A stretch of DNA of 64,000 bases from NCBI GenBank assembly GCA_051294905.1, contig CM119371.1, positions 28,708,001 to 28,772,000 of the forward strand, in the 5' to 3' direction. Position 1 is the first letter of the stretch. Every line of letters begins with the position of its first letter. The notes below the pieces were generated by a model. It was given only the letters and a program-made list of their open reading frames with translations. It was not told the DNA's origin and ran no database searches. Shown here in pieces: positions 2,792 through 39,603 of the stretch. Source of the DNA: Botryllus schlosseri. Taxonomy: Eukaryota. A program made the translations under genes and the position numbers.

Positions 2792-4147
2792 GTCTGAGTC
2801 GTATGACTTGCTTCGAGTTATGCGCAATGACTCGAGTCCAAGTTGAGTCAATTCGCCATTTTGAGAAAACGACTCGAGAGTCAATACAAACCTGTAAAGT
2901 TTTGAGCTCACTGTTTTATTTTTAGATGGTACACGAACTCTTTTGGTTGACGTATTTTGATAAAAGTCGACTTCAATGAAGACAAATGAAAGAGTGAAGT
3001 CCTCTCCCGACGCGAAATCTGTCGTCTGGATAGTCTTACACAGACAGAATTATCCAACAGCCAGTTTAAAAGTCTATCCACACAACTTAAGAAGGCGGAA
3101 CCTATTCGAATACTCCCAAAAGGTGTAAGTACTTCGTAACTGATCACATCTGCCCACACGCAAAGCTCAAAATCTCAGATTAACTCAGTCTACAGAACTA
3201 GAGGATACTTGCACTGGCGTAATACCATACTTCCAACCCCACGTATAAATAACCAACAACGCGGTGCAAACAATCAAATTTTAACAGATCAAAATCAATA
3301 AATAACCATATACAATTCGCAAATAAGGCAAGACGCAGCAAGAAACACAGTGCTCGAACGAAAATGCAACTCAGTCAGGGCGATGAAATAGAAAAAAGTA
3401 ACAGTGGCAAACTACAGTGGCAGAAATCAAGTGTGCAGAAGATTATATTGTGATAAACCAACCGACGACCGTATAAGAAATACTAACAGGAAAAAATTGC
3501 ACAAAGAAGAACGGAAGACAGACAATACTAGAATTCATTACACAGCATAGTACAACATTAGAACACTTGACAAAAGCATCACAAGAAATATCTGGACTCA
3601 TGAAAATCCCAGAAACTCCAGATAATATACAATATATACAATTATTCATATATGTACATTGTACATACATTATCCTCCAAACAGACTATTTTCGACACTA
3701 TATCGTCACTGTGGAATCAAATTAGCTTATGTCCCTGTTACACTTGGCATGCACAACATATCGACAGGATAATATGAACTCAGACACAGTGCAATATATA
3801 GGCTATACATTATCCACCAAACAGACAGAATGGTATATTCGTATAGAAACAAACCCAAATATTTCCGTCAAGGGTAATAGTCAGCAACTAGTAGAGAAAG
3901 GGAAAGAACATTGTCAACAACAAATATCATGTTCTGACACGATTGTCGATATACCATGTTCTTTCCTATTCTCTACTAGGTGCTGACGATTACCCCTGAC
4001 CAGTGTCAGCTGAAAATATTCGGGTTTATCTCAATGTGAATGCACATCTCAATCTCATATTGAAGTTTTGTCTCTACAAATACGTGACGAAGAATTCAGC
4101 ACACCGTACCAATTGGCCTACATTTCATTTGGCACGACACCTCAATT

Positions 4148-4259
4148 TCAGACCACGCTCGGGACAGCGTAATCGGGTAATCTGATACTCAGCATCATAC
4201 AGACGACGAACGCGACAATCATGAGACGGAATTTCGACGGCGATAGCAACCCCAGGCAC
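4148..4259 (-). CDS. terminal exon 33, TM anchor plus tail (GCLGLLSPSKFRLMIVAFVVCMMLSIRLPDYAVPSVV*)
   Basis: ttccag acceptor, phase 2, TGA at 4150-4148; ORF 4148-4351. Confidence 0.8.
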
Positions 4260-7200
4260 CTGGAAGAGAAGATTCTCGATAAGCCCATTGATTTATTATT
4301 ACTATAATAATATAAATTTATACGCAGCATGACTCCACGTAATTTGGACACCGGACAATCGCTTTATTTGGCCTGAATGCTCAGGAACAGAACAAAAGTA
4401 AAACTAGCACATATTGAACTACATTTAATTGAGACAATTCTCAAAGGTTCTAATGATTCCAGTCACAATTTCCAAATCTGTGTCTTGACTCAACTTGTAC
4501 TCGGGTCATAGTCAAATTACGATATTATGAATGCCAGCCATTGTATATCAATCGAGCAGAGTTGAAAAAAAGTGGTTTGAACCGAATTGAACTAAAAACC
4601 GAACAGTGAACACAAAAAACTTGGCCTCGGACTTGACTCGGTGGCGAATTGAAAATGACTCGACACCAGTCAAAACTACAAAAGCGAGATTGACTGGCGA
4701 CTCGGGACGTTGTGACTTGGTTACAACCATGCACATCTCCGCGTAATCCAGACACAGACTCGCAATTCCTACCGTTAGGTTACGACACAAAAACAGTACT
4801 TTGTTCATTTTAATAGAAGATGTGTGATTATGGTGAAAGTGAAACAATGACGATCCATGTAGCATCAATCAATAATGAACTGTCGACTATCCGCATACTT
4901 TTGAGAAGTTAATCAGAGGTGGCAACTTCCGAAATTAGCAGATGCATCTTAACTAACACAAAACAATCAAAAATGTGTAGTGTTTGTAGAATAGGTGCAA
5001 TTTTGCCCAGTTGTCATCATAATTTTACTCATTAAATTGATTAAATAATTTTACTACTCGACGCCACTCAAAAGAATTAATAGTTGATTCAGAGCACGTC
5101 TAGCAACCTTACCCTGCTCCAAACAAGTCGAACAATTTCATCACGCCACCTCTCTGCAAAGAGAAACAAACGAATGAATGAATGAATGTGTCATGGCATG
5201 CTTGGTATCATCACCGACTTACTTCACAGTGGTAACATACCGGGACTGGGTCTGCGCAAACAGGTGAATCATCTGTCGAATCGGCTGAATGTTCCGAGTT
5301 AGGTTTCGTCTAGGTGTAAGGAAAAAATGTAGCAAACTGATGAAAATGCAAGAATCGGGATTCAGGGTTGTAATGACTCGAGTCATTATCTAAAAATTCG
5401 GAATTCGGAAAAGACTCAACTAGAGTTAATTTGTGTATTGACCCGGCTACTACTCGAGTGATTGCACATGACTCGAGACAGGTATTTCATTGTAACGAGA
5501 TAGCGTAGTGCCGTGCGTCGGAGATTATTCTCGGCTCCTCGTCTCAGGGTTGTAACCAAGTCACATGGCGCCGAGTCACAAGTCAATCAGACTTTTATAG
5601 TTTTGACTCAAGTCAAGTCGAGTCATTGTCACTTAACCACCGGGTCAAGTCCGTGTCCAAGTCATTGAGCAGAGGGTCGAGTCCGAGTCATGGTAATATG
5701 ACTTGAGTCCGAGACCAAGTCATAGTGTTGACCGCTCAGTTTCCAGTTAAAGTCTTGTGAAACCCACATTTTATAACTCTGTTTGGTCATATCGAATACT
5801 TCGCATTTAAATTATGCCAATTTTCCTCACTTTTAGCAGTTTCTGGTCGCATTTTCAAGTACCAGTACCAATAGACGAAATCCGAAGAGTGTGGGTACTT
5901 CACTTCTCTTCAAAATTACAATGAAATGTCAGTCTTGGCCGTCTGAGTCTCGAGTCATATGACTTGGTGTGACTCATGCGGACTCATTACAACCCTGCCT
6001 CGGCCCCCATGTCGCCAAAAGAGCACACAAAAAAAGAAAAGAGCAAGCAATATAGTATCACAACAACTCACTGTACCTGGGAGCCACCGCCACCGATGAC
6101 GTCTAGTATCTTCTCACAGGCGGAGCATGAGCATTTCATCGCGATAAAGAAAATTTGCCGAAGCTTCCATTTCGCGTCCGTGCATTTCTTCTCCCAAGAT
6201 TCGCTCTCATTCGTCAGAGTCTAAACGGCACAGATTAAAACCAATAAGGATTTCAAAAATGGCTTCAATGGTTTCGGTTGTATTTGAATTTGGCGTTGGA
6301 CACAAAATTTTCAATTTTTTTCAATTTACATACGACTGTTCCGATTGAATATCATACCATGTCGAAATCCAAAACTCGGGTTTTGACATGATATGATATT
6401 AAATCTGTTAATCTCTGGTAAACAGGCGAGAAAAATGCTACATCACAATAAGATTATTGTGGTATCTTTTTGATCGTGCCATTTCATTGCATTTGGTGAC
6501 AATGGCGTGGGTTGATCACGACATGCTTCATATGCTACGATGCGACCAATTGATGTTTCAAGGTTTTTACAGTGGAAAATGGCATAGAAGCTCTAATTTT
6601 TGTGGAAAAATAAACTCTTACTGGCAAGGAATGCATAATTTCAGTACTCGACTCAAAACTTCTCTCGCTACCCGACTCAAATCATCAGAATACTCAAATC
6701 ATTATGCTCAGTCTGATTTCGGGTGTGCGGCGCATTCATCTCACAAAGCCACAAAGTAGGTTCGAGAAAGAGGGCAGGGTCAGTTATCGACCAAGCTCTA
6801 ATCTCGAATCCACCGGCGTACCTTGACCAGGTCTCGCGACTTGCTTTCCTGCCCCGCGGCTCCTACGCATTTTTCCGCGTCCCGCAGCTTGAAGGACAGC
6901 GACAGCGCGCTCTCCCACATTTTCACGGCCTCCTGAGAGCCGTGGCCCGGTTCCTTGATGGCCTGCAGCACGCCACGGAAGTTCTGGAAATTAAATGTGA
7001 GCTAGTAGTGTCTTGAGTGCGGCTTGAAGTACGTAGGAAATAATTTATGTTCGTGCATTTACTTTGGCCTCATTTGACTCTTGTTTGTATAAGACAGGGC
7101 CGGCCTACCCGTGGCCCGCGGGCCACATGTGGCCCACGAGAAGGTTTCGAGTGGCCCGCGAGGTAATTTCCGAAATTAGTAATATAATACAAAATGGATT

Positions 7201-10200
7201 GCACTGATTGTGAACTTGCAAGGCCAATCAAAAATTTGCTTAGTCTTGCCGCAACACTTGAGATGTGATGATCAAAATATCAGTTCCGGCGCATTAGCAG
7301 ATCCATGAGCCAGTCACATTTTGGTAGATCATCGTACACTACGATAAAGCAGAATAATTTGAGATCGATTTATCAAAAGTAAAAATTTTCTTCACGTTTC
7401 GCGCAACATGTTGTCACTCGATTTCTTGCTTTAAATGTTGTTACCCCTTTGTGAAAATGAAAGAATGCCTAATGTATCAGATTGAGTGTAATTATATTCG
7501 CGATTACGAGACAAAGTGTCGTTCAACATATGCGACATTACGTTTGCGCTAGCAGAAAGACCGTCGACGCCCGACGGTGAAACCTAGGCACGAAATGACC
7601 GATGCATGTTGGTCGAAACTTTCGATGTCGATATGTCCAGGCGGCGAATAGTCCAGTCCTTGCAAACTGCGCCCAGCGATATACAGCGGGCACGCAATAT
7701 ATAGTTAAGTGACAATATTATTGACCTATGAACTTAGAAAAATATTCGCGCCTCGCGCGGTTAGTGGCCCGCATAATAGTTTGTCAATCGAATGTGGCCC
7801 TTCGGCCAAAAAGGTTGGCCAGCCCTGGTACAGGACTATAGGGCCAGTAGTGCCGATCATCATTTCCTAGTGTGCCTTACTTTGTATTTATACCCTGTGT
7901 TGTGTGATCTACTGGTACCGGGATCGTCACCAACGCTCATAATAGTTGTTTGTTGGCATGAAATATTGAGTTCTTTAACCAATCAATCATAACAGACAGA
8001 ATCCAGAGTCGGTGAGGCTTATTGTATGCACACTTATAAACGCCTGTACAAATATGACAAAATTTCAAGAACTTATTGCATCACAATGAAGTAATGCCTA
8101 CTATTTTAAGGGAGATTTGCTAGCACCATCTCATTCCTTGATAGTGTCTGTCGTGAGGTTCATATAGGATTGTGACTTTGAAATCGCATGTAGGGTGCTG
8201 CCCATGAATTATATCAACCTATAAACGTCATAAGCATAAATAAAACAACTTTTTGTTGATGATAGGTCGTAGGGGTGGGTTTGACACCTGTATTATATTG
8301 GTCAAAGAGGTTTTGTGTAAAAAAAGCTTAGGAAACTCTGCACTAGACCATCATTTGAAGTTTCCCGGCCATTTTTCTAATCCGAATAACCTTAGTGAGC
8401 ATGCGACACAATGAAAAACGACAGTGGAGCATGCGCCACTTGAGCACGGGCGTGAGCAGGGCAGTACCAAAGTTTCCTGACCATTTTTTATATCTGAACA
8501 ACCCTAGTGAGTATGCGACACAATCAAAAACTACGACTGCGCATGTGGCACTCGAGCATGAGCGTTAGCAGGGTATCACCAAAGTTTCGTGACAATTATT
8601 CAACTCTGAACAACCCTAGTGAGCATGCGACACTATGAAGACGACAGTTGAGCATGCGACACTCAAACATTAGCATGAACAGGGTAGCTCAGAAGTTTCT
8701 TAACAATTTTTCAGATCTGAACAACCATACTGAGCACTGGACATTTGACCATGCGCCGTGATGAAAATCAACAGTTGAGCATGTGACCCAACAGTTACCC
8801 CTACCCTAACCCTGACCCAAAAAACCCACATTCACAGATGTCACATGCTGATACGGCCATGGACCAGGCAGAAGTGCTATTTCGGTGCAAACAAATGCAA
8901 TGTGCCCGACGTCAAGTATTTCCACACCACGCACAAGCGATACGTACCGCTGCGAAAGATTCAGCGACCAAATCGCGACATACGTTGACAATCTTCCAAC
9001 GTGCCGAGTACGAGCCAGCGTCAACATCACAAAAATGAGAAATCTCACGGGCAGTCCCACCAAGGTTCTATATCAACGGAACGTCCGAATATCATGGACT
9101 TACAAATTTTGCGACCAAATCGTCGTAGAATTCACATAATTTCGAAAGGCTAAGACTAGGCGTGGACCAAATTTAGTACACGAGTGATTCGATTCAAAAT
9201 TGAGTATTTGGCTTTGAGTCTATTCGAGTAATACTTAGGATAAGATAGCGTAACGGTGAAGCGTCCGGCTTCTTGATCGGTAGGTCGTGGGTTCAATCTC
9301 CTGCCGGGTCAGACCAAAGACCTGATTAGTAACACTGGTATCCATGCCTTTCCCGCTTGGCGATCGCCATTACCAGGATAGCATGGAGAGGTGGTGCAAG
9401 ACTTGAAAAGCCTTACAAGGTAATATATGCACCTTCCTTGTCCAGCAGCATATGCACATCATGCACTTGTAGTACTCATTAGGGTTGTCCATAATTTGGA
9501 AAATCTTACAAATCCTCGGTTGTAATGTCTTATTCGATAGATTATTGATAAAAAACGACACTGAGCCTGAAAGAAGCTCACAGAAAGGCCGTTAACATTT
9601 CGTGCAAAGCGTTTGAAAGTAGCTGCCGAAGAATGGGCGTGCCACCGACCATAGAACGGCGAGAAGACTAGTAATCAAGAAACCACGGCTCTTGATTGGA
9701 TAATCGGCTATGCTTCAATGACCACGTCAGCAGCAGCTTGCTGATTAGGTGAACAAGGAGTCTGCTACTGGCGGCGATTCTGAAAGCGCATTGTATGCAG
9801 GTTGACAGATAATGATTTAGGATTGATTAAGGGTATGTTGAGGTACGAAATACATAATGAACAAACAACAGCTGCTTCACAAAAACGTCTAAAGCATGAC
9901 TGCTTTATTGTGAAAGAAACCGCCGCAGCCTATATGCCTTGTTTTCAACGAGGGAAAGCAGAGGCGCTTATGCAAGTGGCGACGGATTCCCAGTTTTAGA
10001 AATAATATATAATTATTGAATACAAAGATAAAGCTTAACAATGACACTATAGTTTGTGTGATCTCATTGGGCTCAGGTTGTAGTACATAGTTGAAGTTTT
10101 GAAAGCTCTAAGGGTCGGCTGAATCAGCGGGTCACGCTTGGCACTTGTCAGATGCTTGCATCAAACTGTATTCACTTGCAAGTGTTGTCAGAGTCCTTGA

Positions 10201-28200: not shown

Positions 28201-31200
28201 CGGTTCTCTGAAAGATATGTTCATTGTTTAGTCGACTTCATCATTTCATAAATATATATAATATATATATTATATATGGGCTAGGCCATGGTAGTCTAAC
28301 TAACAGCCAACTTCTATACATCATAAGCGCAATTTCGTTAACAGGAGGAAGCTTATCTGATACCTGTATTATTATTGGCATTTCCGCTTGTACTTAAACC
28401 TTCATAAATTGATGCTATCTTGCTAAATTTTCAAAGCCCCTCTATTTTTAGGGTGGAGTGAAAAATTTTGAATTTTGAATCAATTTCTATAACAATTTTG
28501 ATATCGTGCACCCTCTAGTGGTCGTGTCATTTCACAGAATGAGCCAAAAATAGGTAATTTCGCTATATATTGATAACCGCTGACACTAGAAAGCTGATTT
28601 CGGTCTTAAAAGATGCAGAAGCAACAAGTTTCTATCTCACTTCCACAGAAATTTGTCTTGAAAATATAAACAGAAAAAAATTATAAGCGAATTTTTAATT
28701 TTTACACCGTTTTTAGGTAAAATTAGGCACTGAAACAGTGGGTAAGACGCCAAATGCGTGTAGTAATTGATTTTATGACTCACAACTCCATATTGAAAGT
28801 ATAGACATTGCAAATCTGTATTGAAAGTCACACCAAGTCACCCTCCTTTTTTCACAGGATACACGCATGGTTGTATTCATTGAAAATGTCACCGTATGCA
28901 TAGTCAGGATGACAATTTGGCGCAGATTTTTATGAGAATTAAACTTTTAAGCATACAATTTATACGTTCACATTGAAATAAACCTGTATATATTCTTCTG
29001 ACTCTGACACTCGTCAGGTGTAATAGTCATCAACTAATTGAGAATTGAGAAAATCATTGGATATCAACAAACGTATCACCGAATATTATGTCACCGGCAT
29101 GAAAATTCGAATAATGAAGTCGAACAGATGGCTTTAGACTCAATGTACCGTTTTTGGATTATACAAGAGCTCATTCTGTTGTCTGATTTTATTTCAACAT
29201 GAATTCGTCATTCAATAGTATATTGGAGTTTTGTAACCCTATCCCCAAGAGTATCCAAAAACCTTTCAGCAGAATCGCAAAGTAAAAATTGAAATCTCGT
29301 GGGATCCATCAGCCAAGTAAAATTATAACTCGAGATCTCTAGCAAGCCTACCGTTGTCGAAAAGTATTTTCCTGGGAGACGACGCAGCCAGGAATGTGAA
29401 AGACGGCAGCTTGTTCTTGTGCACTTTGACGATCGGAGAATCGAAATTGCCCGTCCTGCGAGTGGCGGTGCCACAAATGGGCGAGTCGTAGCAGTTACGT
29501 TCCAAATTCTGCGGCAGGAAGAAAATAGGAAGTGGATGTTTTATATTTTTGTCGATGATTTGCGGCATATACACAGACTCATGATATACATACACTTGAT
29601 CTGTGCATATGCATACCATGAGTGCATGAGGTAGGCTACATATGCAGCTGGACAAGGAAGGTACAGATATAGCCTTGTAAGGCTTTTTAAGTCTTGCACC
29701 ACCCATCCCAGGTATCTGCATGCTAAGCATGACAATTCAAAATCACTCAAAATTCCGTAATCAAAACGAGTCCGGTCAGCATATTAGGGTTTCTACTGAA
29801 TCAATACTAGTCAGCCCGCAAGATTATCGGACCACAATCTGACATACCGGTATCGAGTTCGCCTACCGACACATGCAGTATTCATTTTCACCCCGTCCTT
29901 TTATGCTACCCTTTCTTAAATCCAGTGCGCATGTCTCTTATTTACACGCTGCAGGCCAGGGTGGGTGTCTGATTAAAAGACTACTCCAATTCGTTTTGGC
30001 TCCCACTTATATTTTCATTATATCGCAATCTTGTGACGAATTGATTTGATAAAAATTTCAATAAAATACTGATCTGTATTAGATATTTCCAAGTCTGAAT
30101 CCAGAGTCGAAATGGATTAAGTCATACTTGCTCGAAAAGACATTTAAAAATTCAAAATTACTAGAAATTACGTAGTTCAATAGAGATCTGGGTTTACGAA
30201 AATGGTAAATCCCGATCCGGCCGCCATTAGGAGGTCGGATTTCATATATTTAAACCAGAATTCTGAATTTATTCCCCACCTTGTGACCCACTCGAAAAAA
30301 ACATTGACCTATAGCTAATTAGCTAGTTCTGAGAGTTTTGAGTCTGATTTAAAGTGGAATGTCCCAACTAAATGGGCTGGTAGAATAGAAATTGTTCTAG
30401 CTTTTCGTAGAAGATTAAAAACTTTGCGCATTACCACACTGCTACCATTCTAGTTAAATTCACCTCGTCGGCAGTGGTCAATTCCTGTTCGATACTCTGC
30501 TTTACAGTACTGGAGTCGTTAAAGCTTCTGGTCCTGAAAATTTGAAGAGATTCTCAACACAGCAGCCTAAGTACAGTCGTTGCAATACCATAATACAGGT
30601 GATCAAAGTAGTCACTATCTTAGAGTAGATATAGAGCAGGGGTCACCAACTGAAAATGGGTCCCAAACCACTTTTTGAATTTCGTAGTGGCCGCTGGCCG
30701 CATAAATTCAATATCGATATATAATAGGCAACCACGTCTTAAAACTCTACGACAGCACAACGCTGTGCTACCTAACACACACTCAGGGAATACAAATTCA
30801 ACAAAAAATCATCATCAATTTCATTCTATTTTGAACTCTTGAGATGTGCACGATTCCCGGAAACGCTTTTCAGCGACTAAGGATTCGATATCGGGGCTAG
30901 CGAGAGAGGTTACTAGCTGAAAGACCATCTCCACGTAAAGCTTGATCTTGCGGGGAAGCCCTAAGACAATGGTTCTCAAACTTTTTTAGACACGCCCCCC
31001 TTTATGATAATGAAAAAAAAATTCGCGCCCCCCTAATCGTCATATCTCAAAATGCTACCAGAATGCTAGCAATCCCAACGGATAGTTTGATGGCATTGAA
31101 TAAGGTTATAACTTTTGATTGGAGAATACTTTGTTATGAATTCCGGACAATACACTGAGCAACAACGATGAATTTGAGCAACACTGAGCAACAAACTCGT

Positions 31201-34200
31201 TCAGTTGACTGCAGCTCTGCGCCCCTTCAGTTGCTTCCATGCCCCCACAAGGGGGGGGGGCACCCCCCAGATTGAGAACCACTGCCCTAAGCCGTTTTCT
31301 AAGCGTCTCGGTCTTAGCAGTGTTTGGGTCATTGCACGTCACGGCAATATGCTTATTGATATCAGCTGACTCTCCCTCGGTGGCAAGCTGTTGCCATCGC
31401 CAAAGCCATTTTAGTTAGCGACGGATAGTGATGTTGGGCACAGGAGAATATCTTATTTTGAAACAGCAACAGCAATATGTTGAAACTGTCGTCAAATTCA
31501 GCATTCTAAAATGGTTTTCTTAGATTTCTTCCAAAATCTCAAGTCAAGTAGCGGGCCGCAAAATATGACCGCGTGTTGCTGACCTCTGATATAGAGTGTC
31601 TAGAAGTAGGCAGAGATGGTTAAAGCAACCATCGTTGGCACCAAGTACAACTACAAGTAGCAATTTCCAAGTAAAAAATGACACTAAGTAGTTTACTCCT
31701 AGATTCCAAAAAATTTCAAGTAGAAGTGGAAGTACTCTATAATGTAGGTTTTCAAGAAAGAGCACATGGAACTATAAACGGACTACATATCAGAAAGGAG
31801 ATCGTTAAACTGAGATTTTTGAAGGCTCAACACTCTGCAAAATTTGTTTTCAAATTCTACCAATCCCCAAGCAAAATAAGGTTCAGAACAATTGACACAG
31901 AGCACATTACTTTGACAAGGTTAGCGCTACGCATAGAGCTTGCAAAATTGTAGCTTTAATAAGTAATCGCATCATCTCGTAACAAACTGTAGTATGTGCA
32001 TAACACTTACATGGAATACTCCAATTGCTGAGCGTGAAGCTGTTCGATTAGCCTCTTCTTTTCCTCGTTGATGGTCTGACAAGAAGCAAAGTTTCATCAG
32101 CGACACAACGACATTATTTCTATGCATCGTGACATAGGGATCAGGAATAATTTCGTAACGAGGTGGCTATCAGAGCCCTACCGATATCAAAATTTCACAA
32201 TATTATTCGTTTGGGCCAATATTTGTTGTCGAGAATTTCACAATATTTCCACTAAATCCAATTCAGTTGCAGGAACAATAGCAAGCCTATTATTATGCCT
32301 ACAAAAATTAGCTTCCGATAGTCCATTCCCTATTCAATTACTATCGGAATGTTGCGGCCATCCATCGTAGAATGCGGATTCTTTTACGGTTAGCTTACCT
32401 CGTACATACTTTCGAAATGATTCAACCTATCTTCTAGATCGGCGACTTGTTTGGTTTTCTGCAAGGAGAAACAGCAACCCTTTAGTGAACTATATAATCA
32501 CCGACAAAGTGATCAAACATAATCTGAATATATCATCTCTTTATATAAGACCAGAGTTGGCTGCAGCAGTCGGCGCTGGTATTCAAGTACCGTAAATTTC
32601 AATTCAATTACAATTACATGTAGCTATTTCCAAGACACATCAAAACTACTCCAAGTCGAAGAAGAAATTTGCCATCCCTGGCATGAAATCAGACTTGGTT
32701 AAACTAGTAAGCATTGGTACTCAAGTAGATGTGAAAGTAATGCCATAAATTTCTACTCGAAAACAATTAGGCTATAAGCGGACATTTCAAAGACATTGTC
32801 AAAACTACTTCAAATGGAAGGAGAAACTGATAGGCCAGAATACCACACCAGTACCGTACCTAGTTTCTAAAAGCAGATCTGTTCGAGTGATCAGATTTTT
32901 TTGAGCAGGTTATCAAGATTGCAATTTTCGCGACTAACACAAAACGAATATGACACTACAAGTAGGAGCAATATTGGGAAATGCATTTAGTTACCATGAT
33001 GCAAGGTATATTTCTTGCAGTTTTGATCACAATTTCACTCGGAAAAAGTGTCACAAACTCCACTACATTCCACTTTACAAAATCAAAATTGTAGAAAGCA
33101 AGTTGGATTGCCTAAAAAACTGTTGAAGTAGAATTGGGGGTATTCTAAAAACATATCAAATTAAGAAAGTATTGAAGTTCTGCACCTCCAAGAAGCTCAT
33201 TAAGAAAGTAGTACAAGCAGGAAAACCTTGCTTCAACACTACAGTAAAAGTACAAATCGTCACTAAAGTGTGCGGTTCAAACTCGAGTGATAACAGTGCG
33301 GTAGCCTAGTTGTATCAAAACTCACCAAGGCACATGCGTCCCTTTCGGTCTCCCATCTCAAATGCGTATCTTCGAATTTGTCCTTGACAAGAAACACATC
33401 GCCACTTAAACGTCAGGCATTACCGAAGATTTGCGAAGAGATTAAATCCCTGACTTTTTAACCCAAAATTCGAGCGTGAGCCTAACTCTGACTAAGATTT
33501 TGTCAAATCTCACTGTATTCATTACACCTTTTTTAACCGTAGCAAAATAACAGAAATATACAATCAAATTATGACATCAAAACGGACTTCACAGAACAGG
33601 TAAGGCACCTCACACAAGTGCTATAGTTGATTTGAGCTAAGCTTTTGCTACTAAGATTATAAAGATAACAAATTCAGAGTTATATCAAGCCCAGGACATT
33701 GTACTAACAACGGTTAAGCTATGACCTCGAATACAGCAATGAGTGATCACATAATTTATGTGAATACAAAAAATAAATACCTGTAATATCTGGTTGTCCG
33801 TCTGTATATTCGCACACATATCTCTTTCTTTCTCGAGTTGTGTGCACACTATGTCGTACTGTAATTCCAAACAGAATAATTTAATATTGAAGGCATATCA
33901 CAGTTTCACTTCATGCTTCGCAATTTTAATTAGAATCTATACCTTGCATGAGTGGGCTACTATGTAATCGAACAATTTGAGCATGAATTAGGATTAGATC
34001 AATATAGAATTGAAGATTTTCGACCGGTCTGAGATTACAATTTTTCTAAGACAACCTTTGTTTGTCCATAAATTATCAGAAAGACAGTTTTCGACTCTTT
34101 TCATTTGTTTGCATTGGAGCCGACATCAATCAAAATACAGCAACCTAGTCTGTCCCAACAGAAAGAGTTTGTGCGCTATCTAAAAACAGTACATTTCATG

Positions 34201-37200
34201 CCGGTGAATTCATATTTGGTGATACGATTGTTAAAGGGGCTCTGCACTCTGAAAATGATGTGGTCTCAAATTGATGGGCATTGAAAGAAAAATTTTGGTC
34301 GCAGCCGTTTTCTTCAGAACGCCACCGTAATGGAGCTGCAATGTATTGAAATTTCCATAGGGGCAAAACGCTCCAGCAGTCACGCAGAGATCAAACTTTA
34401 CATAGTTATATATAGTGTATAGGCCGATGTTATGAAGGGAATGGAATACACTAGTCCCGATTTTGACATAAATCTCCTGACTGGACATCTTCCGTTGAAT
34501 GCGGTATCTAAACCACCTTGGCATGTACGACATATATCCTTCATAACATCGGCTGATAACTATATACAGTTAGATCTCTGCATGACTGCTGGAGGGTTTT
34601 GCCCCTATGGAAATTTCAATACATTGCAGCTCCATTACCGTGGCGCTCTGAAGAAAACGGCAGCAGCCAAAATTTTTCTTTCGTTTTGCCCTTCAATTTG
34701 AGACCACATCATTTTCAGAGTGCAGTGCCCATTTAATATACAATATTCTTTTCAATTCCGTACTAGTTGCTGACTCGACCAGAGCAGCGTCAACCAAAAA
34801 TATGAATATATCATTCAATTACACTGACTTTGTTCTGAATCTCCGACAGCGTGATCCTGTAATCGTCAGCCTCTTCCTTCGCAACTTTCTCCCGATACGA
34901 CGCACTCTCCACGGCCTTCTGCAGTCTGTGATTGGCAGTTTGAATTTCGTCTTTTTCCGAGAGCAGCTCCTGGATGCCGGGCTTCACATCTTGAATTCTG
35001 AAGAACATTACAGATTACAACTGCAAAAGTCACTGCCGTATGCCATGGGGCTGGGAGTGGGGGTCACACACTAATACCGAGAATGCTGTTACTGTGAATG
35101 TGTACATCAAGAGAATGGACAATTTAGGGCTGTTCAGAATAACTATTCTTTTCAAATTTTACTGGCCACTTGACAAAATTGTTAGATAGCTTAAAAAACG
35201 CGGCACACCAGTTTTGGTTCGATTCCAACCTGTAGAAGCATTGATTTACGAGAGAGAAGTTTTGGATTTAATAAAAGTTTTTTCAAGGTAAAAAAATGTC
35301 AAAATTTTGATTTTTTAGGTAAAAATCTTCCGTTTTTAGGTTAAAAAAACGCCCAACTTATTATAGACCTACCCACCGTAAATACTCTTTTTTTCAAATC
35401 GAAAATTCTCTACTGCAATAACTTCCACTGGTTGGAATTGCGCTAAATCTCATAATCATCTGTTTTTCATACAACCTAACAATTACGTGTCCCGCATGTC
35501 TATGTGCAAGGTGCGATGGCACACGCAGTAGAATTACCTTCTGAGGTCTTTTTCCAGCGCGGCAATCCTCTGCTTTTGCAGGTCATATTCCTCGTCACCC
35601 ACCTCGAGCTGGCGCCTCACGTCTGAGACTTCACGTTTCAGACCCGTGTTGACGCTGATCAGATTCTTGTTCCTCAGAAGTAGCTCGCCAACATCGCTAA
35701 GGAAAGGACAAACAGCTTCTTGAAGATACACAACTTCAATATACAATAACATATCTGCGAGGTCGTGATCAGTCCTCAGCATTGCCATAAAATGCAATAA
35801 GTAGCAGGGTTGTCATGACTCGACTCGGGTCCGAATCTAGTCACGATTTTCTGATGCCTCGAGTCATTTTCTCAAAATAGGGAATAACTCGACTCGATTA
35901 AATCTGTATATTGACTCGACTTGGATTCGAGTCATTGCAGATGACTCGAATGAAGTCACATGACTCGAGACTCAGACGGCCAAGAACAACATTTCATTGT
36001 AATTTCGAAGAATAGTAACGTAACCACCCTATTGGTGTTTCGTCTATTGGTACTAGTACTTGAGACCGGAAACTGGAAAAACTTAGGAAAATTAGTATCT
36101 TATAATGCGAACTATTTGATATCACTAAACAGAGTTATAAAAGTGGGTTCAACAAGACTTGACCTGGATACTGAGCAGTCAACACAATGACTTGGACTCG
36201 AGTCATAATACCATGGTAGAACCACTGCTCGATGACTTGGACACGACTCGGTGGTGAATTGAAAATGACTCGAATCAAAACTATAAAAGTGAGATTGACT
36301 TGTGACTCAGGAGACTTGTGACTAGGTCGCAACCCTGATAGGTAGGCCTAGTAGGTACGGTCTACAAAATACCAAATAATCTTTAATACGATGGCCTTCA
36401 TATTCACTGTGGTGAACGAGCGATACTCGACTCGAAGTCTAATACTCGATTCAGAATCAAATGACTCACACTGCACTTAGTTTTCCATGGCCCTAGCTAG
36501 TTGTTACTACATGCAATTAAATAGGTATAGACGAAAACACACCAAATTCTCTTTATGGGGCATGCAACTTTCGTACCGCCATAGAGATAGTAAAGAAATA
36601 TTGAGCGATGCTCGAATACCCGCATAGCCTACTCGATTCAGAATCGCATCACTGATACGCTCGATTTCACTCAGCTCTAAACATCACCTATAACACATGC
36701 GATGAAACAGGACAAGCCTCAAAACTCAACTGTTCCATGATGGACATGGTCGAAATATCCCCACCGCACCCCTCCAGCTGGCTGCTCGTATTCAAGAAAG
36801 ATTCGTCTGGAAAGAATATTCAAAGAGATTGTGAAAAGCAAGGACTATGGCTCCGCAATTTTACCGGATCAGACCGATTCCATCCATTTTGGATTGCTTA
36901 CTTTGAAACATGATCAATGATCATACTAGTTAGAAACCAACACACAGAGGTGGTCAGTAACGAGTCAGTACAGTACTACAGTGCTAATTTTTTTGAGTAC
37001 TCCTTTCGGTTTCGTTTAATCTTTTCTGAGTCTAGTTGCACCAGTTAAGTAGTTGTTTTAGACTTCTGGCTGTTCTGAGGAACTGCTAAAAGCATGTGAC
37101 CCCAAATCTTCACTTTGAAACCAGACTAACAACCAATAAAACCCAATCAAAGCTTACCAGATGAAGGAATATCGCCAGCATTCAAGCTATCCCCAAATGA

Positions 37201-39603
37201 ATTCCTGAACAAAAGAGTGATTCAAATTAATCAAGCGAAACAACCGCACATGTGAATTAGCTTGAATGTAGTGAGTAATGGGGATATCCATATAAATTGG
37301 ACCCAACGATACTTATGCTTCATTCAGTTTGTGGCTGACACATTATTTTGGTGTACGCCACTTGATGTAGGCTACATCCTATTTTCAATGCCAAACCATC
37401 AAAATTTGTAGAGCATGAGGAACCGTTAGCGTTGAAATTGACCGATAATTTTGCAAAACTGAGCTCACATTCATAAATATCGGTATCAGTAAGCTTGAAA
37501 GCAGTATTACGGTCGAAACACATCAAACAGGATATGCTAAAAAATGCTTCGTTCAAGAACTAACAAACTGACAACTTGAATTAAGCACAGGTACCGAATA
37601 TTTTTGAAATAATAATGACATCAACTTGAAGCACGTTTACGGTAATTCAATTCAATACTTTATTTCCACGTTCGACTATGTATGGCAACAATAACTTCAC
37701 CTCCATTATTTTCTCCTTAATCAATAGTTGATATCAATATCAATTGGTATCAACAGTTGATCGTTATTCCTCATGCACTGGGCACAGTCTGCAACCAGCT
37801 CACTAACCCTCAAGGGATACTAAGACCACCTGCTCGGAACCAATAATGTGAAGGTTTATAAGATCATCAATAACTACACAAGAATATCAACTTGGCTTGA
37901 CAATATTATTGAAATTTGTGTGTCCTATTATCGCTAGCTATTGATGTGCCGAGAGAAACACAAGGATGTCGCAGTGTTAATGTACACATAGTCTAGCTAC
38001 TGGTTGAAAGTCACATCAACACGATTCTTCCAACCCGTTCAAATCTGCTCGCATCAGCAAAGGAAATTATACATCGATATGACTAGTATGGTATTTATTT
38101 CATTATTATGTAATAGGAAGATATAAGTGATAAAATTTGCATCAAACCTTTTTGTTTCCGCAAAGCTTTTTATCAGCGTGATGAGCGAGTCCACTGATAT
38201 TGACGTGTCAAGATCCAAACTTTCGCAGAGCGCAGATAGCTCGTCGGGTCCCGCAGCTGATATGTTACGTCATTACAGTAAGAAAGGCGCATCAACATAA
38301 TTTTTGGTAATGAACAGCAGGGCTTCTCAAACTTTTACCTCTATACCCCCAATTTAGATAGAAACTCTTTTAGGCAACAATGACAGAGGTCGTCCATAAC
38401 AAGATACTTTCAATTTTTAGAAGTACTAAACTGGCATTGTATAGTTTCAGTACGCAATCAAGCAATTTTGGTTTCAGATTTCTTCCACTTCTCACCCAAT
38501 AGTTTTTGAAGCCAAACTAATAGCTACAGTGTCTAATTTCCATATATTGTCAAGTAGCCTAAAGAGTAGTGGCACACCTTAATTCGACAGATTCACATCA
38601 ATTTCATCGGTAAAATTGCCACGACATTTCGGGTTAAACGCAAGGGTGGGTATTACAATTTTAAAAACTAACACCAACGATCTAAATCTATATTACCCCA
38701 GTCGTATATTTAGCTACACATACGCATTTGCACATCAAATGGCACAAACTGGAAGTTGAAAATTTAAGGTGACTTGACCCCAGTTACTTTGAAAATTTAT
38801 AAGCTATACCTCAATAAGGGGCTCGACTTATAAACTTCGGGAGGACTTGACTTGACTAAGTCAAAATTTGCAGTTGACTCGAAATGATTTGGGGCCAGAA
38901 GGTATTGAGTTGTTCTGAACGCTGACGCTGGTATGTACATTTAGCATTTATATTCTAGGCTAAATAATAAGGAATGGATGAAAGAGAGCTGAAAGACATA
39001 TCTTCAGAATTACCAAATTCATTAGGTATGAAATTGCAGTGCTTTTCTGTTTCTGCCTACTCAACAGTCGTATAGACTGTGGACAACCTAACAATTGTGG
39101 ATAGTTCATAATAAAAATCTAAAAGTAAAGATACCGGTACTTACACCGTAATGTGATGAAAAACTCCAAGACATCAGGAACAGAAATATTCCTATCAAAT
39201 TCATCTTCGATTTGATCCGATTGCTCGCCAACTGCCACTAAAATAAAAAATATCCTTGTTACTGGCTTTCGAAAAGAGCGAAAACAGCTGTGTAATGTCA
39301 CCAGCATCGGGAATTACGTATATAAGTCTCGCAAATTTATACAGTATAAAGATTAGAGTATTTCAGCATCCTTACAATTTTCCATTCCAAATATATCCCG
39401 CGCCTGATGCAAATATCATGTAGCAACACGCGAGATACAGTGCAGGACACGGTATTGGAATCATATACCGGTATACGGTGTAGTCAGTGAACCGATTAAT
39501 CCAAAACAACAATCGCCAATCGCATCGATAACTGTATATATGCAATATCACAATTCGTAAAATATAACTTACCTTCCACATCTTCAAAGGGAGCGTTATC
39601 CAT
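4148..39603 (-). CDS. LRMP: 33-exon gene, about 953 aa: LRMP/IRAG2 (Futile cycle)-KASH5-like tail-anchored coiled-coil protein (EF-hand-like N-terminus, coiled coils, QT-motif array, LRMP/MRVI1-like domain, C-terminal TM plus short tail)
   Basis: Manual assembly with all introns GT..AG and phases matching; summed CDS 2862 nt. N-terminal ISVPDVLEFFITLRSAGPDELSALCESLDLDTSISVDSLITLIKSF and QLEGCGGD resemble the KASH5 EF-hand region. ISHFCDVDAGSYSARWKIVNVCRDLVAESF and VGAAGQESKSRDLVKTL resemble LRMP/IRAG motifs (RDLAEE; LGAVHQESR). Ends FRLMIVAFVVCMMLSIRLPDYAVPSVV*. Family call is from memory of motifs. Confidence 0.8.
5113..5153 (-). CDS. exon 32 (RGGVMKLFDLFGA)
   Basis: ttgcag / gtaagg, phase 0/2. 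Confidence 0.8.
5223..5309 (-). CDS. exon 31 (TKPNSEHSADSTDDSPVCADPVPVCYHCE)
   Basis: acctag / gtaagt, phase 0/0. Confidence 0.8.
5545..5997. mobile_element. GACTCGAGTC-rich hAT-type MITE (CAGGGTTG termini)
   Basis: CAGGGTTGTAA...TTACAACCCTG; fragments of this family at 1-2900, 4480-4730, 5363-5490, 22380-23485, 25260-25325 and a full copy at 35805-36337. Confidence 0.75.
6077..6220 (-). CDS. exon 30 (TLTNESESWEKKCTDAKWKLRQ...GGGGSQ)
   Basis: tttag / gtacag, phase 0/0. Confidence 0.85.
6822..6983 (-). CDS. exon 29, LRMP-like (NFRGVLQAIKE...VGAAGQESKSRDLVK)
   Basis: GC-rich, ttccag / gtacgc, phase 0/0. Confidence 0.9.
7095..7827. mobile_element. hAT MITE, inverted paralog of 2085-2791
   Basis: Collinear reverse complement of 2085-2791; TSD GTATAAGA/GTACAGGA. 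Confidence 0.85.
8357..8790. repeat. Degenerate tandem repeat, about 108-bp unit, about 4 copies
   Basis: Recurring AAGTTTC...CTGAACAACCCTAGTGAGCATGCGACAC...GAGCATG units. Confidence 0.75.
8948..9067 (-). CDS. exon 28, start of LRMP-like domain (NLGGTAREISHFCDVDAGSYSARWKIVNVCRDLVAESFAA)
   Basis: atatag / gtacgt, phase 0/0. Confidence 0.8.
9104..9149 (-). CDS. exon 27 (SLSKLCEFYDDLVAKF)
   Basis: tcttag / gtaagt, phase 2/0; followed by a 36-nt intron. Confidence 0.65.
9243..9479 (+). mobile_element. tRNA-derived SINE (continues at about 11131-11210 after the foldback insertion)
   Basis: A-box TAGCGTAACGG, B-box GGTTCAATCTC; related heads at 46100 and 62610; body/3' part also at 24700-24770 and 29540-29720. 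Confidence 0.75.
9480..11122. mobile_element. 1.64-kb foldback/palindromic DNA transposon with 8-bp TSD
   Basis: TAGGGTTGTCCATAA...TTATGGACAACCCTA; perfect TSD GTACTCAT; arms pair almost to the centre (about 10292-10302). Confidence 0.9.
11811..13412. mobile_element. hAT (Buster/Charlie-type) non-autonomous element
   Basis: CAGTGGTTCTCAACC...GGTCGAGAACCACTG; perfect TSD TTCTATGC. Confidence 0.85.
13454..13475 (-). CDS. exon 26 microexon (EGMYKIS)
   Basis: tcacag / gtaggc, 22 nt, bridges phase 1 to phase 2. Confidence 0.5.
13861..14387 (+). mobile_element. CR1/L2-type LINE 3' fragment
   Basis: LKVYDIFKFEVMKFMH...YFDNLF motif of the RT ORF2 C-terminus; ends AATAAAGATTCTCTTTCTCTC. Confidence 0.65.
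14498..14528 (-). CDS. exon 25 microexon (ISLKSQSRLV)
   Basis: atttag / gtgagt, phase 0/1. Confidence 0.6.
14803..14834 (-). CDS. exon 24 microexon (VCRVDAESKIA)
   Basis: ttacag / gtaaga, phase 1/0. Confidence 0.6.
15812..15852 (-). CDS. exon 23 (WWSNRFDQFDSLKS)
   Basis: ttacag / gtaatc, phase 2/1. Confidence 0.75.
16710..16831 (-). CDS. exon 22 (AEKSIRTTDALRSDLLKEQEKVLHLSG...QLDT)
   Basis: ttacag / gtgagt, phase 0/2. Confidence 0.85.
17126..17214 (-). CDS. exon 21 (AEPEKQQSQNHSLNAECEEEKCDAAYWRNL)
   Basis: ttttag / gtaagg, phase 1/0. Confidence 0.8.
21709..21774 (-). CDS. exon 20 (VKSTFWRHFDRFYKRTHRWISP)
   Basis: ttcaag / gtaagc, symmetric phase 1/1 (skippable). Confidence 0.6.
22640..23400 (+). 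mobile_element. Penelope-like element 3' fragment: inverted partial pLTR, GIY-YIG endonuclease C-terminus, pLTR
   Basis: YVGRTSQRLFERIKQH...SSIGQHL...LKVLES..IQLNKPILCRQK; 22640-22722 is the reverse complement of 23310-23390. Confidence 0.8.
23531..23651 (-). CDS. exon 19, coiled coil (LQQVYEKWNLAQDELAQL...ELARLH)
   Basis: Several in-frame CAG acceptors at 23642-23651; donor gtacta, phase 0/1. Confidence 0.8.
24100..24133 (+). ncRNA. Minimal type I hammerhead ribozyme motif in a Penelope-like repeat
   Basis: CCC-CUGACGA-GUGUCAGCU-GAAA-AUAU-UC-GGG: core CUGANGA/GAAA/UH, stem I CCC/GGG, palindromic AAUAUU stem III. Confidence 0.65.
24569..24657 (-). CDS. exon 18 (AEVRQLKCDNHSLKVSYETKKLVIEAWEDE)
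   Basis: tttaag / gtgagg, phase 1/0. Confidence 0.8.
24771..25236. mobile_element. MITE with internal 100-bp-arm palindrome, inserted in a SINE
   Basis: TGGGGCTCTTCAAAAAT...TTTTTGAAGAGCCCTA; TSD AGCCGCAT; internal inverted repeat 24790-25015; related sequence at 35125-35480. Confidence 0.8.
25809..25866 (-). CDS. exon 17 (VEKLEEKLSGMDEAVELAQ)
   Basis: aacag / gtactc, phase 0/1. Confidence 0.8.
26391..26495 (-). CDS. exon 16 (CESETQTVSVETRDSESQTIDCMLYLAAYSAKCEE)
   Basis: tcgcag / gtttgt, phase 0/0. Confidence 0.8.
27405..27438 (-). ncRNA. Minimal hammerhead motif, same repeat family (sense to the host pre-mRNA)
   Basis: Reverse complement reads CCC-CUGACGA-GUGUCAGCC-GAAA-ACAU-UC-GGGU with one stem I substitution. 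Confidence 0.55.
27616..27717 (-). CDS. exon 15 (CEAEMQTVSVGMRESDTQTGDLSFSYTNGTELHE)
   Basis: tcccag / gttagt, phase 0/0; paralogous to exon 16. Confidence 0.8.
28107..28207 (-). CDS. exon 14 (ENRVTFNGDASFDVREAETQTVTASGKNPVKTLE)
   Basis: tttcag / gtttgt, phase 1/0. Confidence 0.85.
29352..29508 (-). CDS. exon 13 (NLERNCYDSPICG...SSPRKILFDN)
   Basis: ccgcag / gtaggc, phase 0/1; within ORF 29323-29730. Confidence 0.85.
30464..30533 (-). CDS. exon 12 (MTRSFNDSSTVKQSIEQELTTADE)
   Basis: tttcag / gtgaat, phase 2/0. Confidence 0.85.
30637..31588. mobile_element. hAT MITE containing a nested hAT MITE (30967-31284)
   Basis: CAGGGGTCACCAAC...GTTGCTGACCTCTG, TSD ATATAGAG; inner CAATGGTTCTCAA...TTGAGAACCACTG, TSD CCCTAAGA/CCCTAAGC. 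Confidence 0.8.
32011..32075 (-). CDS. exon 11 (TINEEKKRLIEQLHAQQLEYS)
   Basis: tgtcag / gtaagt, phase 0/2. Confidence 0.85.
32399..32458 (-). CDS. exon 10 (KTKQVADLEDRLNHFESMYE)
   Basis: ttgcag / gtaagc, phase 0/0. Confidence 0.85.
33326..33382 (-). CDS. exon 9 (DKFEDTHLRWETERDACAL)
   Basis: tcaag / gtgagt, phase 0/0. Confidence 0.8.
33781..33858 (-). CDS. exon 8 (YDIVCTQLEKERDMCANIQTDNQILQ)
   Basis: ttacag / gtattt, phase 0/0. Confidence 0.85.
34235..34732. mobile_element. TTAA-flanked long-TIR MITE (Kolobok-like termini)
   Basis: TTAA|AGGGGCTCTGCACTCTG...CAGAGTGCAGTGCCCAT|TTAA; about 180-bp arms; interrupts a hammerhead-family repeat. Confidence 0.8.
34829..34997 (-). CDS. exon 7, coiled coil (RIQDVKPGIQELLSEKDE...EIQNK)
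   Basis: ttcag / gtcagt (alternative in-frame donor 6 nt downstream); ORF 34811-35008. Confidence 0.9.
35538..35696 (-). CDS. exon 6, coiled coil (HDVGELLLRNKNL...ALEKDLR)
   Basis: ccttag / gtaatt, overlaps ORF 35534-35797. Confidence 0.9.
35805..36337. mobile_element. GACTCGAGTC-rich hAT-type MITE
   Basis: CAGGGTTG...CAACCCTG; TSD ATAAGTAG/ATAGGTAG. Confidence 0.8.
36731..36806 (-). CDS. exon 5 (DESFLNTSSQLEGCGGDISTMSIME)
   Basis: ttccag acceptor; weak gttgag donor gives the required phase 2. Confidence 0.8.
37158..37204 (-). CDS. exon 4 (RNSFGDSLNAGDIPSS)
   Basis: ttcag / gtaag, phase 2/1. Confidence 0.8.
38148..38256 (-). CDS. exon 3, EF-hand-like (SAGPDELSALCESLDLDTSISVDSLITLIKSFAETK)
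   Basis: atcag acceptor, gtttga donor, phase 1/2. Confidence 0.85.
39145..39237 (-). CDS. exon 2 (VAVGEQSDQIEDEFDRNISVPDVLEFFITLR)
   Basis: ttttag acceptor, gtaagt donor, 93 nt, phase 1/1. Confidence 0.85.
39573..39603 (-). CDS. LRMP/KASH5-like exon 1 (MDNAPFEDVE)
   Basis: ATG at 39603-39601, donor GTAAGT, phase 1. Confidence 0.75.

What the first reader, a model, noticed from the sequence alone, without database searches (positions are those of the whole stretch)
4148..39603. Invertebrate Futile-cycle-type gene joining a KASH5-like EF-hand/coiled-coil adaptor and an LRMP/IRAG domain in one tail-anchored protein
Seen: a phase-consistent 33-exon ORF of about 953 aa that the ORF track largely misses. 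Known: mammalian KASH5 (EF-hand dynein adaptor) and LRMP/IRAG2 (Jaw1) are separate genes, while zebrafish Lrmp/Futile cycle carries both halves and attaches pronuclei to the centrosome. Inference: this is a very divergent invertebrate member with the undivided architecture, and a candidate nuclear-envelope dynein anchor for meiosis or pronuclear congression.
Basis: partly seen in the sequence, partly recalled or inferred. Interest (0 to 1): 0.8.

Follow-up and report, generated by a model that had tools for sequence, protein, structure and literature searches.

The report
Divergent Futile-cycle-like coiled-coil membrane gene
This is a real, heavily spliced gene, probably from a sea squirt, whose protein is laid out like the zebrafish fertilisation protein Futile cycle (a membrane hook for the dynein motor) but carries an extra row of dynein-light-chain docking motifs and lacks the usual nuclear-envelope tail; neither its family identity nor a single transcript across both halves could be proven.

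Summary
A minus-strand, all AG/GT, phase-consistent chain of 33 exons runs from ATG 39603 to stop 4148 (974 aa). Exons 20 and 29 look spurious; a 31-exon, 933-aa model is likelier. One gene is favoured: a blind parse joined exon 19 to exon 21 in 6 of 6 settings, and exons 21-25 are coding-like but hold no Met. The one RNA lay supports several 3' exons but listed no exon-exon joint.

The layout fits Fue/long Lrmp: a helix-loop-helix N-terminus, a ~195-aa coil, a Spindly-like motif, a late helical block and a tail anchor. But every profile test, possible only exon by exon, was negative, and an unrelated coil exon scored better on the KASH5 coil model. Family identity therefore rests on layout and recalled motifs (about 0.7).

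New here: five TQT-type LC8 motifs built by exon duplication, and an 11-residue tail without PPPX, so SUN anchoring is unsupported. Best reading: an LC8-braced, ER/outer-nuclear-membrane dynein adaptor of the Fue type. Earlier unchecked notes call invertebrate Fue-type genes common. Interest 0.4.

The parts
39573..39603 (-). Exon 1, ATG start
   Evidence: chosen as first exon in 6 of 6 blind parses
39145..39237 (-). Exon 2, first half of putative degenerate EF-hand pair
   Evidence: coding signal p 0.003; EF identity by eye only
38148..38256 (-). Exon 3, second putative EF-hand; folds as helix-loop-helix
   Evidence: pLDDT 77; no EF-hand among fold hits
37158..37204 (-). Exon 4, linker
   Evidence: p 0.095
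36731..36806 (-). Exon 5, linker; donor site uncertain
   Evidence: donor score -6.0; blind parse used 36770
35538..35696 (-). Exon 6, start of coiled coil 1 (about aa 123-318 over exons 6-12)
   Evidence: single copy in genome
34829..34997 (-). Exon 7, coiled coil 1
33781..33858 (-). Exon 8, coiled coil 1
33326..33382 (-). Exon 9, coiled coil 1
32399..32458 (-). Exon 10, coiled coil 1
32011..32075 (-). Exon 11, end of coiled coil 1
30464..30533 (-). Exon 12, Spindly-like motif SIEQEL (aa 328-333)
   Evidence: the consensus it is compared with is recalled
29352..29508 (-). Exon 13, Ser/Pro-rich linker
28107..28207 (-). Exon 14, first TQT motif (aa 409)
27616..27717 (-). Exon 15, MQT and TQT motifs (aa 429, 441); duplicate of exon 16
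   Evidence: 50% aa identity to exon 16
26391..26495 (-). Exon 16, TQT and SQT motifs (aa 463, 475)
25809..25866 (-). Exon 17, coiled coil 2 (about aa 479-584 over exons 16-19)
24569..24657 (-). Exon 18, coiled coil 2
23531..23651 (-). Exon 19, end of coiled coil 2; weak donor; in phase with exon 21
21709..21774 (-).
   Evidence: frame not best, p 0.42; never chosen by blind parse; some RNA depth in its bin
17126..17214 (-). Exon 21, first exon of the downstream group, no Met
   Evidence: X1 implied depth 3.8
16710..16831 (-). Exon 22
   Evidence: X1 implied depth 15
15812..15852 (-). Exon 23
   Evidence: p 0.018; X1 implied depth 14
14803..14834 (-). Exon 24 (acceptor uncertain)
   Evidence: p 0.09; X1 implied depth 18 for exons 24+25
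14498..14528 (-). Exon 25
   Evidence: p 0.045; X1 depth as above
13454..13527 (-). Exon 26, first in-frame Met of the downstream group
   Evidence: (p 0.052)
8948..9067 (-). Exon 27, start of putative MRVI1/LRMP-like helical block
   Evidence: p 0.003; family likeness recalled, Pfam negative
6822..6983 (-). Exon 28, helix-loop-long helix, putative MRVI1/LRMP-like core
   Evidence: single copy; no relative found
6358..6414 (-). Exon 29 of the 33-exon chain: probably spurious, skippable in phase
   Evidence: GC 0.32, frame not best, p 0.61
6077..6220 (-). Exon 30
   Evidence: an X1 contig piece ends at about 6221, depth 16
5223..5309 (-). Exon 31, acidic linker (weak)
   Evidence: p 0.34
5113..5153 (-). 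Exon 32 (weak)
   Evidence: (p 0.17)
4148..4259 (-). Exon 33: 14-residue hydrophobic core, 11-residue tail without PPPX, stop
   Evidence: X1 contig piece 4147-4258 at depth 19.9 with two synonymous and one Met/Leu difference in this frame

Best explanation
One gene, best modelled with 31 exons (exon 19 spliced to 21, exon 28 to 30; 933 aa), encodes a tail-anchored, dimeric dynein adaptor of the Futile cycle/long-Lrmp type. Proposed working: the degenerate N-terminal helix-loop-helix pair binds the dynein light-intermediate-chain helix; coil 1 (~195 aa) lies along dynein-dynactin; the motif after it contacts the dynactin pointed end; five TQT-type sites recruit a ladder of LC8 dimers that zips the two disordered linkers together; coil 2 and the late helical block dimerise and may bind the IP3 receptor as LRMP and IRAG1 do; the C-terminal segment inserts in the ER, which is continuous with the outer nuclear membrane. 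With no PPPX tail it is more likely to haul ER or nuclei without a SUN partner than to be a LINC component. SHOWN: the exons, the coils (home-made heptad score), the motif array, the hydrophobic tail, transcription of several 3' exons. INFERRED: the long transcript (about 0.75), homology to Fue/KASH5/LRMP (about 0.7), LC8 binding (about 0.75), all dynein and IP3R steps, the location.
For: Single frame: exon 19 joined to 21 in 6 of 6 blind parses; exons 21-25 are best in the chain's frame yet have no Met, and the 4494-nt gap offers only 7 ATG-first-exon candidates, all with donor scores of 2.0-3.9. Layout: KASH5 has EF-hands at 36-103, coils at 155-349 and a Spindly motif at 371-376 (PMC10071310 passages); here the putative pair is at about 20-73, the coil at about 123-318 and the motif at 328-333. 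Fue joins a KASH5-like N-terminal extension to LRMP (PMC3787381 passages). Exon 3 folds as helix-loop-helix and exon 28 as helix-loop-long helix without an alignment. Three TQT, one MQT and one SQT lie within aa 409-477; 2 of 20000 shuffles give three TQT and 0 of 20000 give five such motifs within 80 aa (the sites are not independent, exons 15 and 16 being duplicates). A Q anchor flanked by T is the LC8 motif (PMC12057147 passages). The tail frame is supported by differences in run X1: 2 of 3 synonymous and 1 Met/Leu, against 0 of 3 synonymous in either other frame.
Against: No homology test passed: 0 of 25 exon-sized pieces hit EF-hand_9, KASH_CCD or MRVI1; no window place among 0, 21 and 7 genome-wide candidates for PF05781, PF14662 and PF14658; an unrelated FYCO1-like coil exon scored E 3e-4 on KASH_CCD, better than any window exon, so coil likeness by eye is not diagnostic. 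A generic EF-hand profile did not separate the N-terminus from shuffles (64 of 500 as good). Exon 28 found only four bacterial-type TPR repeat proteins among 1.84 billion. No exon-exon joint was listed, and X1 depth steps from about 4 on exon 21 to 14-18 on exons 22-25, which could mean an internal start. The Spindly-like pattern was chosen after seeing the sequence (1.3% strict, 9% loose by shuffling) and lies 10, not 22, residues after the coil. The blind parse never recovered the TM exon.
Confidence: 0.55

Rival explanations
1. One reading: a true LINC component, held in the outer nuclear membrane by SUN proteins, pulling telomeres in meiosis or pronuclei after fertilisation.
For: Same layout evidence; Fue and KASH5 do this (PMC3787381); KASH5's own KASH domain is called degenerate there, so a divergent tail is conceivable; the 14-residue core sums to 37.7 kcal/mol on the GES scale, close to the 38.6 given for KASH5 (PMC8115505 passages; windows not identical).
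Against: No PPP anywhere in the protein; only 11 residues follow the core; PF10541 finds this genome's nesprin-type KASH at 56 bits but not this tail among 14 candidates; no convincing alternative PPPX exon within about 14 kb downstream; no germline expression shown.
Confidence: 0.15
2. Two tandem genes, or two non-overlapping transcripts: a KASH5-like upstream unit (ending through exon 20 and the transcribed element at 19772-18923, or by read-through of exon 19's weak donor into a short hydrophobic tail) and a separate LRMP-like downstream unit.
For: 4.5-kb gap; depth step in X1; run X9 has about 1285 bases in bin 19068-19733 and 67 in the exon-20 bin but almost none on exons 22-25; exon 19 read-through is open for 27 more codons with a hydrophobic run (ORF 23693-23448).
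Against: Exons 21-25 would be five coding-like exons with no start codon; the blind parse never broke the gene there; the 19772-18923 stretch is a low-copy element with 73-89% identical copies 150-185 kb away and no kept frame, so X9 reads there may come from elsewhere. Short isoforms could coexist with the long one.
Confidence: 0.17
3. An unrelated, lineage-specific tail-anchored coiled-coil scaffold (golgin- or centrosome-type LC8 client) that resembles Fue only in general layout.
For: All profile, fold and homologue searches were negative; long coils plus a tail anchor are common.
Against: These searches could use only 20-56-aa pieces; in the control 1 of 2 RUN-domain exons was also missed. 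The joint order of HLH pair, ~195-aa coil, motif, late helical block and tail anchor matches Fue.
Confidence: 0.13

Closest known systems
Zebrafish Futile cycle (Fue/long Lrmp)
   Same: Undivided layout: KASH5-like N-terminal extension, LRMP-like C-terminal part, tail anchor (PMC3787381 passages).
   Different: Homology not shown; tail lacks PPPX; five TQT-type motifs in the middle (whether Fue has such motifs was not checked, no sequence being available).
Mammalian KASH5/CCDC155 (Pfam EF-hand_9 PF14658, KASH_CCD PF14662)
   Same: Putative HLH pair, ~195-aa coil and a Spindly-like motif in the same order and at similar spacing.
   Different: About 370 aa longer, second coil and late helical block present, EF loops shortened, no KASH peptide, no exon-level profile match.
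LRMP/IRAG2/Jaw1 and IRAG1/MRVI1 (Pfam PF05781)
   Same: Late helical block followed by a linker and a C-terminal anchor; type II ER protein layout (PMC10298018 passages).
   Different: Luminal tail 11 aa against 39 aa in IRAG2; no PF05781 candidate in the genome search; IP3R binding untested. That IRAG1 also lacks a KASH end is recalled.
Multivalent LC8 clients with tandem TQT motifs (ASCIZ type)
   Same: Five Q-anchored motifs 12-22 residues apart in a polar linker between coils.
   Different: Here in a membrane-anchored protein and built by visible exon duplication; binding not tested.

Membership tests
Fue/long Lrmp (undivided KASH5+LRMP type) | Both halves on one transcript | tested here: inconclusive
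   No junction listed in the one RNA lay (180 joints hidden); computational support.
Fue/long Lrmp (undivided KASH5+LRMP type) | Profile or phylogenetic match of the whole spliced protein to Lrmp/KASH5/IRAG | not testable with these tools
   Remote tools take only unspliced stretches, and no family member could be fetched for a local test.
KASH5 (EF-hand dynein adaptors) | N-terminal EF-hand pair (PF14658) | tested here: inconclusive
   Exons 2 and 3 no Pfam hit; generic EF profile p about 0.13; exon 3 folds as helix-loop-helix, fold search uninformative, best Z 4.0.
KASH5 (EF-hand dynein adaptors) | Coiled coil of about 190-200 aa after the EF-hands | tested here: met
   Heptad-score segments 123-177, 179-259, 268-318 (home-made score); not specific.
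KASH5 (EF-hand dynein adaptors) | KASH_CCD (PF14662) match | tested here: inconclusive
   No window exon scored; an unrelated coil exon did, below the cut-off; exon-level test only.
KASH5 (EF-hand dynein adaptors) | Spindly-like motif after the coil | tested here: inconclusive
   SIEQEL at 328-333; consensus recalled; chance 1.3-9%.
KASH5 (EF-hand dynein adaptors) | Binds LIC helix 1 and activates dynein | not testable with these tools
   Needs biochemistry.
LRMP/IRAG (MRVI1 domain) | PF05781 match | tested here: inconclusive
   Exons 27, 28, 30 no hit; no candidate anywhere in the genome, and the tool warns this does not show absence.
LRMP/IRAG (MRVI1 domain) | Single C-terminal membrane anchor | tested here: met
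   14-residue hydrophobic core, 11 residues from the end; short, so marginal; frame supported.
KASH proteins (LINC complex) | Luminal tail ending in PPPX | tested here: not met
   Tail ends PSVV; no PPP in the protein; positive control L041 ends PPPV.
KASH proteins (LINC complex) | SUN-dependent outer nuclear membrane location | not testable with these tools
   Needs localisation.
LC8 (DYNLL) clients | Q-anchored TQT-type motifs in a non-coil linker | tested here: met
   Five motifs at aa 409-477 between the coils; definition from PMC12057147 passages.
LC8 (DYNLL) clients | Measured binding to LC8 | not testable with these tools
   Needs ITC or pull-down.

The most novel reading that the evidence does not exclude
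The vertebrates' sister group keeps the undivided Fue-type gene but has turned it from a SUN-bound nuclear anchor into a SUN-independent ER-dynein adaptor, with an LC8 ladder grown by exon duplication and an IP3-receptor-binding block. It would couple IP3R-rich ER to dynein and could be the link that drags cortical ER or pronuclei along the sperm aster in the ascidian egg (that movement is recalled, not from a call), and it might also make a short KASH5-like isoform by ending after exon 19, a within-gene preview of the split seen in tetrapods.
Probability: 0.12. Interest if true: 0.75.

Novelty: new variant of a known kind. Interest (0 to 1): 0.4.

Why it matters
PMC3787381 (passages) proposes that KASH5 and LRMP arose by duplication of a fish-type fused gene and loss of 5' or 3' exons. 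A tunicate gene with both halves would place the fused form before vertebrates and give a testable candidate for dynein recruitment to membranes in ascidian gametes and zygotes. No paper holding both 'KASH5' and 'ascidian' was found, nor one with MRVI1, LRMP, invertebrate and evolution; the one paper with KASH5, LRMP, phylogenetic and invertebrates did not address this in the passages seen. But an earlier unchecked note (e1-7708960) and my recall of database annotations say fused invertebrate members are already widespread, so the architecture itself is modest news. The LC8 array and the missing KASH end are the parts a specialist would want tested.

Tried and rejected
Homologue searches, all empty: exon 6 (27 candidates, none E<=10), exon 15/16 profile (18 candidates, none), exon 28 against 1.84 billion representatives (4 hits, all TPR-type repeat proteins, rejected), Atlas with exon 28 (no usable hit), PDB sequences with exons 6, 3 and 33 (chance hits or none), metagenome contigs with exons 6 and 28. 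A KASH_CCD hit on contig C15 looked like a better-conserved paralogue but belongs to a RUN-domain, FYCO1-like gene; rejected. EF-hand_9 hits in the genome are centrin/calmodulin-like. Foldseek and VIA-align with the exon 3 model gave nothing specific. The complex prediction of a truncated LC8 dimer with exon 15 returned no verdict (score 0.11). No RNA holder was listed as on record in the run search; in the lay, repeats swamped the joint table. Candidate exons at 13092-12962 and 11559-11416 were rejected (negative codon score, phases do not fit), as was 10871-10806 (inside an inverted repeat). The 19747-19371 'terminal exon with a hydrophobic end' was downgraded: codon score -49.5 and part of a low-copy element. 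Synteny: 50 kb on each side holds zinc-finger, transposon, BIR-type and fibrinogen-domain sequences by eye, nothing informative. Rfam: no match in the window. The original Fue paper was not held. The stretch around the element copies on C1 beyond the 3-kb loci was not seen, so paralogous exons there are not excluded. No supplements were opened; the alignments in the KASH5 papers are figures and could not be seen.

Full report
Setting. The window is G000:C1:28708001-28772000 of a 495-Mb, 219-contig animal assembly. Earlier AI notes on this genome call it an ascidian; I did not test this.

Gene model. Reading the minus strand, I built a chain from ATG 39603 to stop 4148. A codon-periodicity model trained on 18 coding pieces from elsewhere in the genome (one held two stops) ranks the chain's frame best in 30 of 33 exons; 23 of 33 beat stop-free intron pieces at p<=0.01. 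Exons 20, 29 and 33 are the three not best; 20 and 29 can each be skipped in phase, giving 952, 955 or 933 aa. A blind parse trained only outside the window began at 39603 in 6 of 6 settings, matched 14-16 exons exactly and 6-7 more in part, joined exon 19 straight to exon 21 in 6 of 6 and never used exon 20; scores were 114-173 against 1-13 for the other strand. It recovered the 3' half poorly, took in a repeat piece, never reached the TM exon, and in 1 of 6 settings split the gene between exons 11 and 12. Exons 6 and 28 are single-copy.

One gene or two. Exons 21-25 carry coding signal but no Met; the first is in exon 26. The 4494-nt gap holds seven ATG-first-exon candidates with modest donors and unconvincing peptides. 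This favours an upstream start. RNA is thin. I laid 4 of 24 listed runs on 3750-23700 only. Repeats dominated, and none of the 15 joints shown links model exons (180 hidden). In repeat-poor bins, contig set X1 (RNA by guess) implies depths of 18, 14 and 15 on exons 24+25, 23 and 22, 3.8 on exon 21 and 6.7 on the part of exon 20 in its bin. X1 pieces end at about 4258 and 6221, the acceptors of exons 33 and 30, and another runs from 4177 to 3804, consistent with a 3' UTR (ends inferred from the from_end column). The three raw runs, of which 6-13% was read, show almost nothing: X5 has 160 bases over exons 21-22, X9 has 53 in the exon-21 bin and none on exon 22, X7 none. X9 also covers 19068-19733, but that stretch is a low-copy element with 73-89% identical copies nearby. 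The depth step at exon 21/22 is unexplained. Exons 1-18 were not examined with RNA. I put a long transcript at about 0.75.

Anatomy. A home-made heptad score marks coils at 123-177, 179-259, 268-318 and 479-584. Exon 3 alone folds as helix-loop-helix (pLDDT 77) and exon 28 as a short helix, loop and 37-residue helix (pLDDT 72). SIEQEL at 328-333 resembles the Spindly motif as I recall it. Between the coils lie three TQT, one MQT and one SQT (aa 409-477); exons 15 and 16 are duplicates, 50% identical. The tail has a 14-residue hydrophobic core (GES sum 37.7; 21-29 for windows of 15-21, which take in charged residues) and 11 residues ending PSVV. Three X1 differences in exon 33 are two synonymous and one Met/Leu in this frame and all non-synonymous in the other two.

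Homology. The order and lengths match KASH5 (EF-hands 36-103, coils 155-349, Spindly 371-376; PMC10071310 passages) followed by an LRMP-like end, as in Fue (PMC3787381 passages). The hydrophobic pocket residues listed for KASH5 in PMC9242646 (passages) can be placed on F36, L40, L51, L66, I67 and I70 only by eye and with gaps, and exons 27, 28 and 30 recall the MRVI1 block only from memory; these are leads, not tests. The tests I could run were on single exons and were negative: Pfam 0 of 25 pieces for the three families, genome-wide family searches, a generic EF profile (64 of 500 shuffles as good), fold searches and homologue searches. Controls cut both ways: 1 of 2 RUN-domain exons was missed, so exon scans have false negatives, but an unrelated FYCO1-like coil exon scored E 3e-4 on KASH_CCD, above every window exon. 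I rate Fue-type homology at about 0.7.

KASH membership fails on its defining feature. KASH proteins end in PPPX (PMC10298018 passages). PF10541 finds this genome's nesprin-type tail at 56 bits, ending PPPV after 33 residues, and does not list this gene among 14 candidates. Five downstream P-rich stops within about 14 kb look like chance. A moderately hydrophobic anchor can also misdirect tail-anchored proteins to mitochondria (PMC8115505 passages), so even the ER location is inferred.

Mechanism. Most likely (0.55) a dimeric, ER/outer-nuclear-membrane dynein adaptor: HLH pair to LIC, coil 1 along dynein-dynactin, LC8 ladder on the linker (motif definition from PMC12057147 passages), late helical block possibly to IP3R (PMC9177832 and PMC10298018 passages). 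Rivals: SUN-bound LINC component (0.15), two units (0.17), unrelated scaffold (0.13).

Novelty. I found no paper on a tunicate or other invertebrate member in nine searches (listings only, and one search showed 20 of 568). Passages of PMC4284225, PMC12581424 and PMC7227075 did not address it, and the original Fue paper was not held. An earlier unchecked note describes an arthropod Fue-type gene as known from automatic annotation of many invertebrates, and another a chytrid KASH-like protein with QT repeats, so neither the fused layout nor QT arrays need be new. Verdict: a real gene, probably a divergent variant of a known kind, with two testable oddities; interest 0.4.

Noticed in passing
window 9242-9470 (+), related pieces at 11153-11206, 46101-46255, 29621-29716, 24704-24770: A SINE-like element matches a very abundant short RNA: thousands of reads begin at 9242 with a template-switch adapter and end in poly(A) near 11206-type sequence. 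The reads are from other copies (90-95% alike). No Rfam match.
   Followed up: partly
window 9480-11122: A roughly 1.6-kb imperfect palindrome (1031 nt aligned, 90% identity) inside the 4.4-kb intron before exon 27; it holds a false exon at 10871-10806.
   Followed up: partly
window 18923-19772; L050-L052: Low-copy GC-rich element with 73-89% identical copies at G000:C1:28877219-28878805 and 28912831-28913888; open for 126 codons here with a hydrophobic end, frame not kept in the copies; transcribed signal in run X9.
   Followed up: partly
window 23448-23530 (-): Read-through of exon 19's weak donor stays open for 27 codons and includes a run of about 12 hydrophobic residues, a possible short tail-anchored isoform.
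   Followed up: no
window 57217-57317 (+) continuing into L031:5510-5896: Neighbouring plus-strand gene with a coiled-coil part and a fibrinogen C domain; a related piece lies in L032.
   Followed up: partly
window 50423-54357 (+): Several short exon-like pieces with an ATG at 50423, not modelled.
   Followed up: no
L020-L022 (G000:C15:12860263-12877706, +): FYCO1-like gene (RUN domain by Pfam, long coils; the name and a GOLD-like end are by eye).
   Followed up: partly
L041 (G000:C8:1395229-1395402, -) and L036, L037 (C9): A canonical nesprin-type KASH tail and two canonical LC8 genes in the same genome.
   Followed up: partly
L032:8154-8786 (-) and L034:209-841 (+): Near-identical inverted copies of a two-ORF cassette, one ORF with a BIR-like domain by eye, about 14 kb apart; long C2H2 zinc-finger ORFs in L027, L030 and L035; a 1540-aa retroelement-like ORF in L028.
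   Followed up: no
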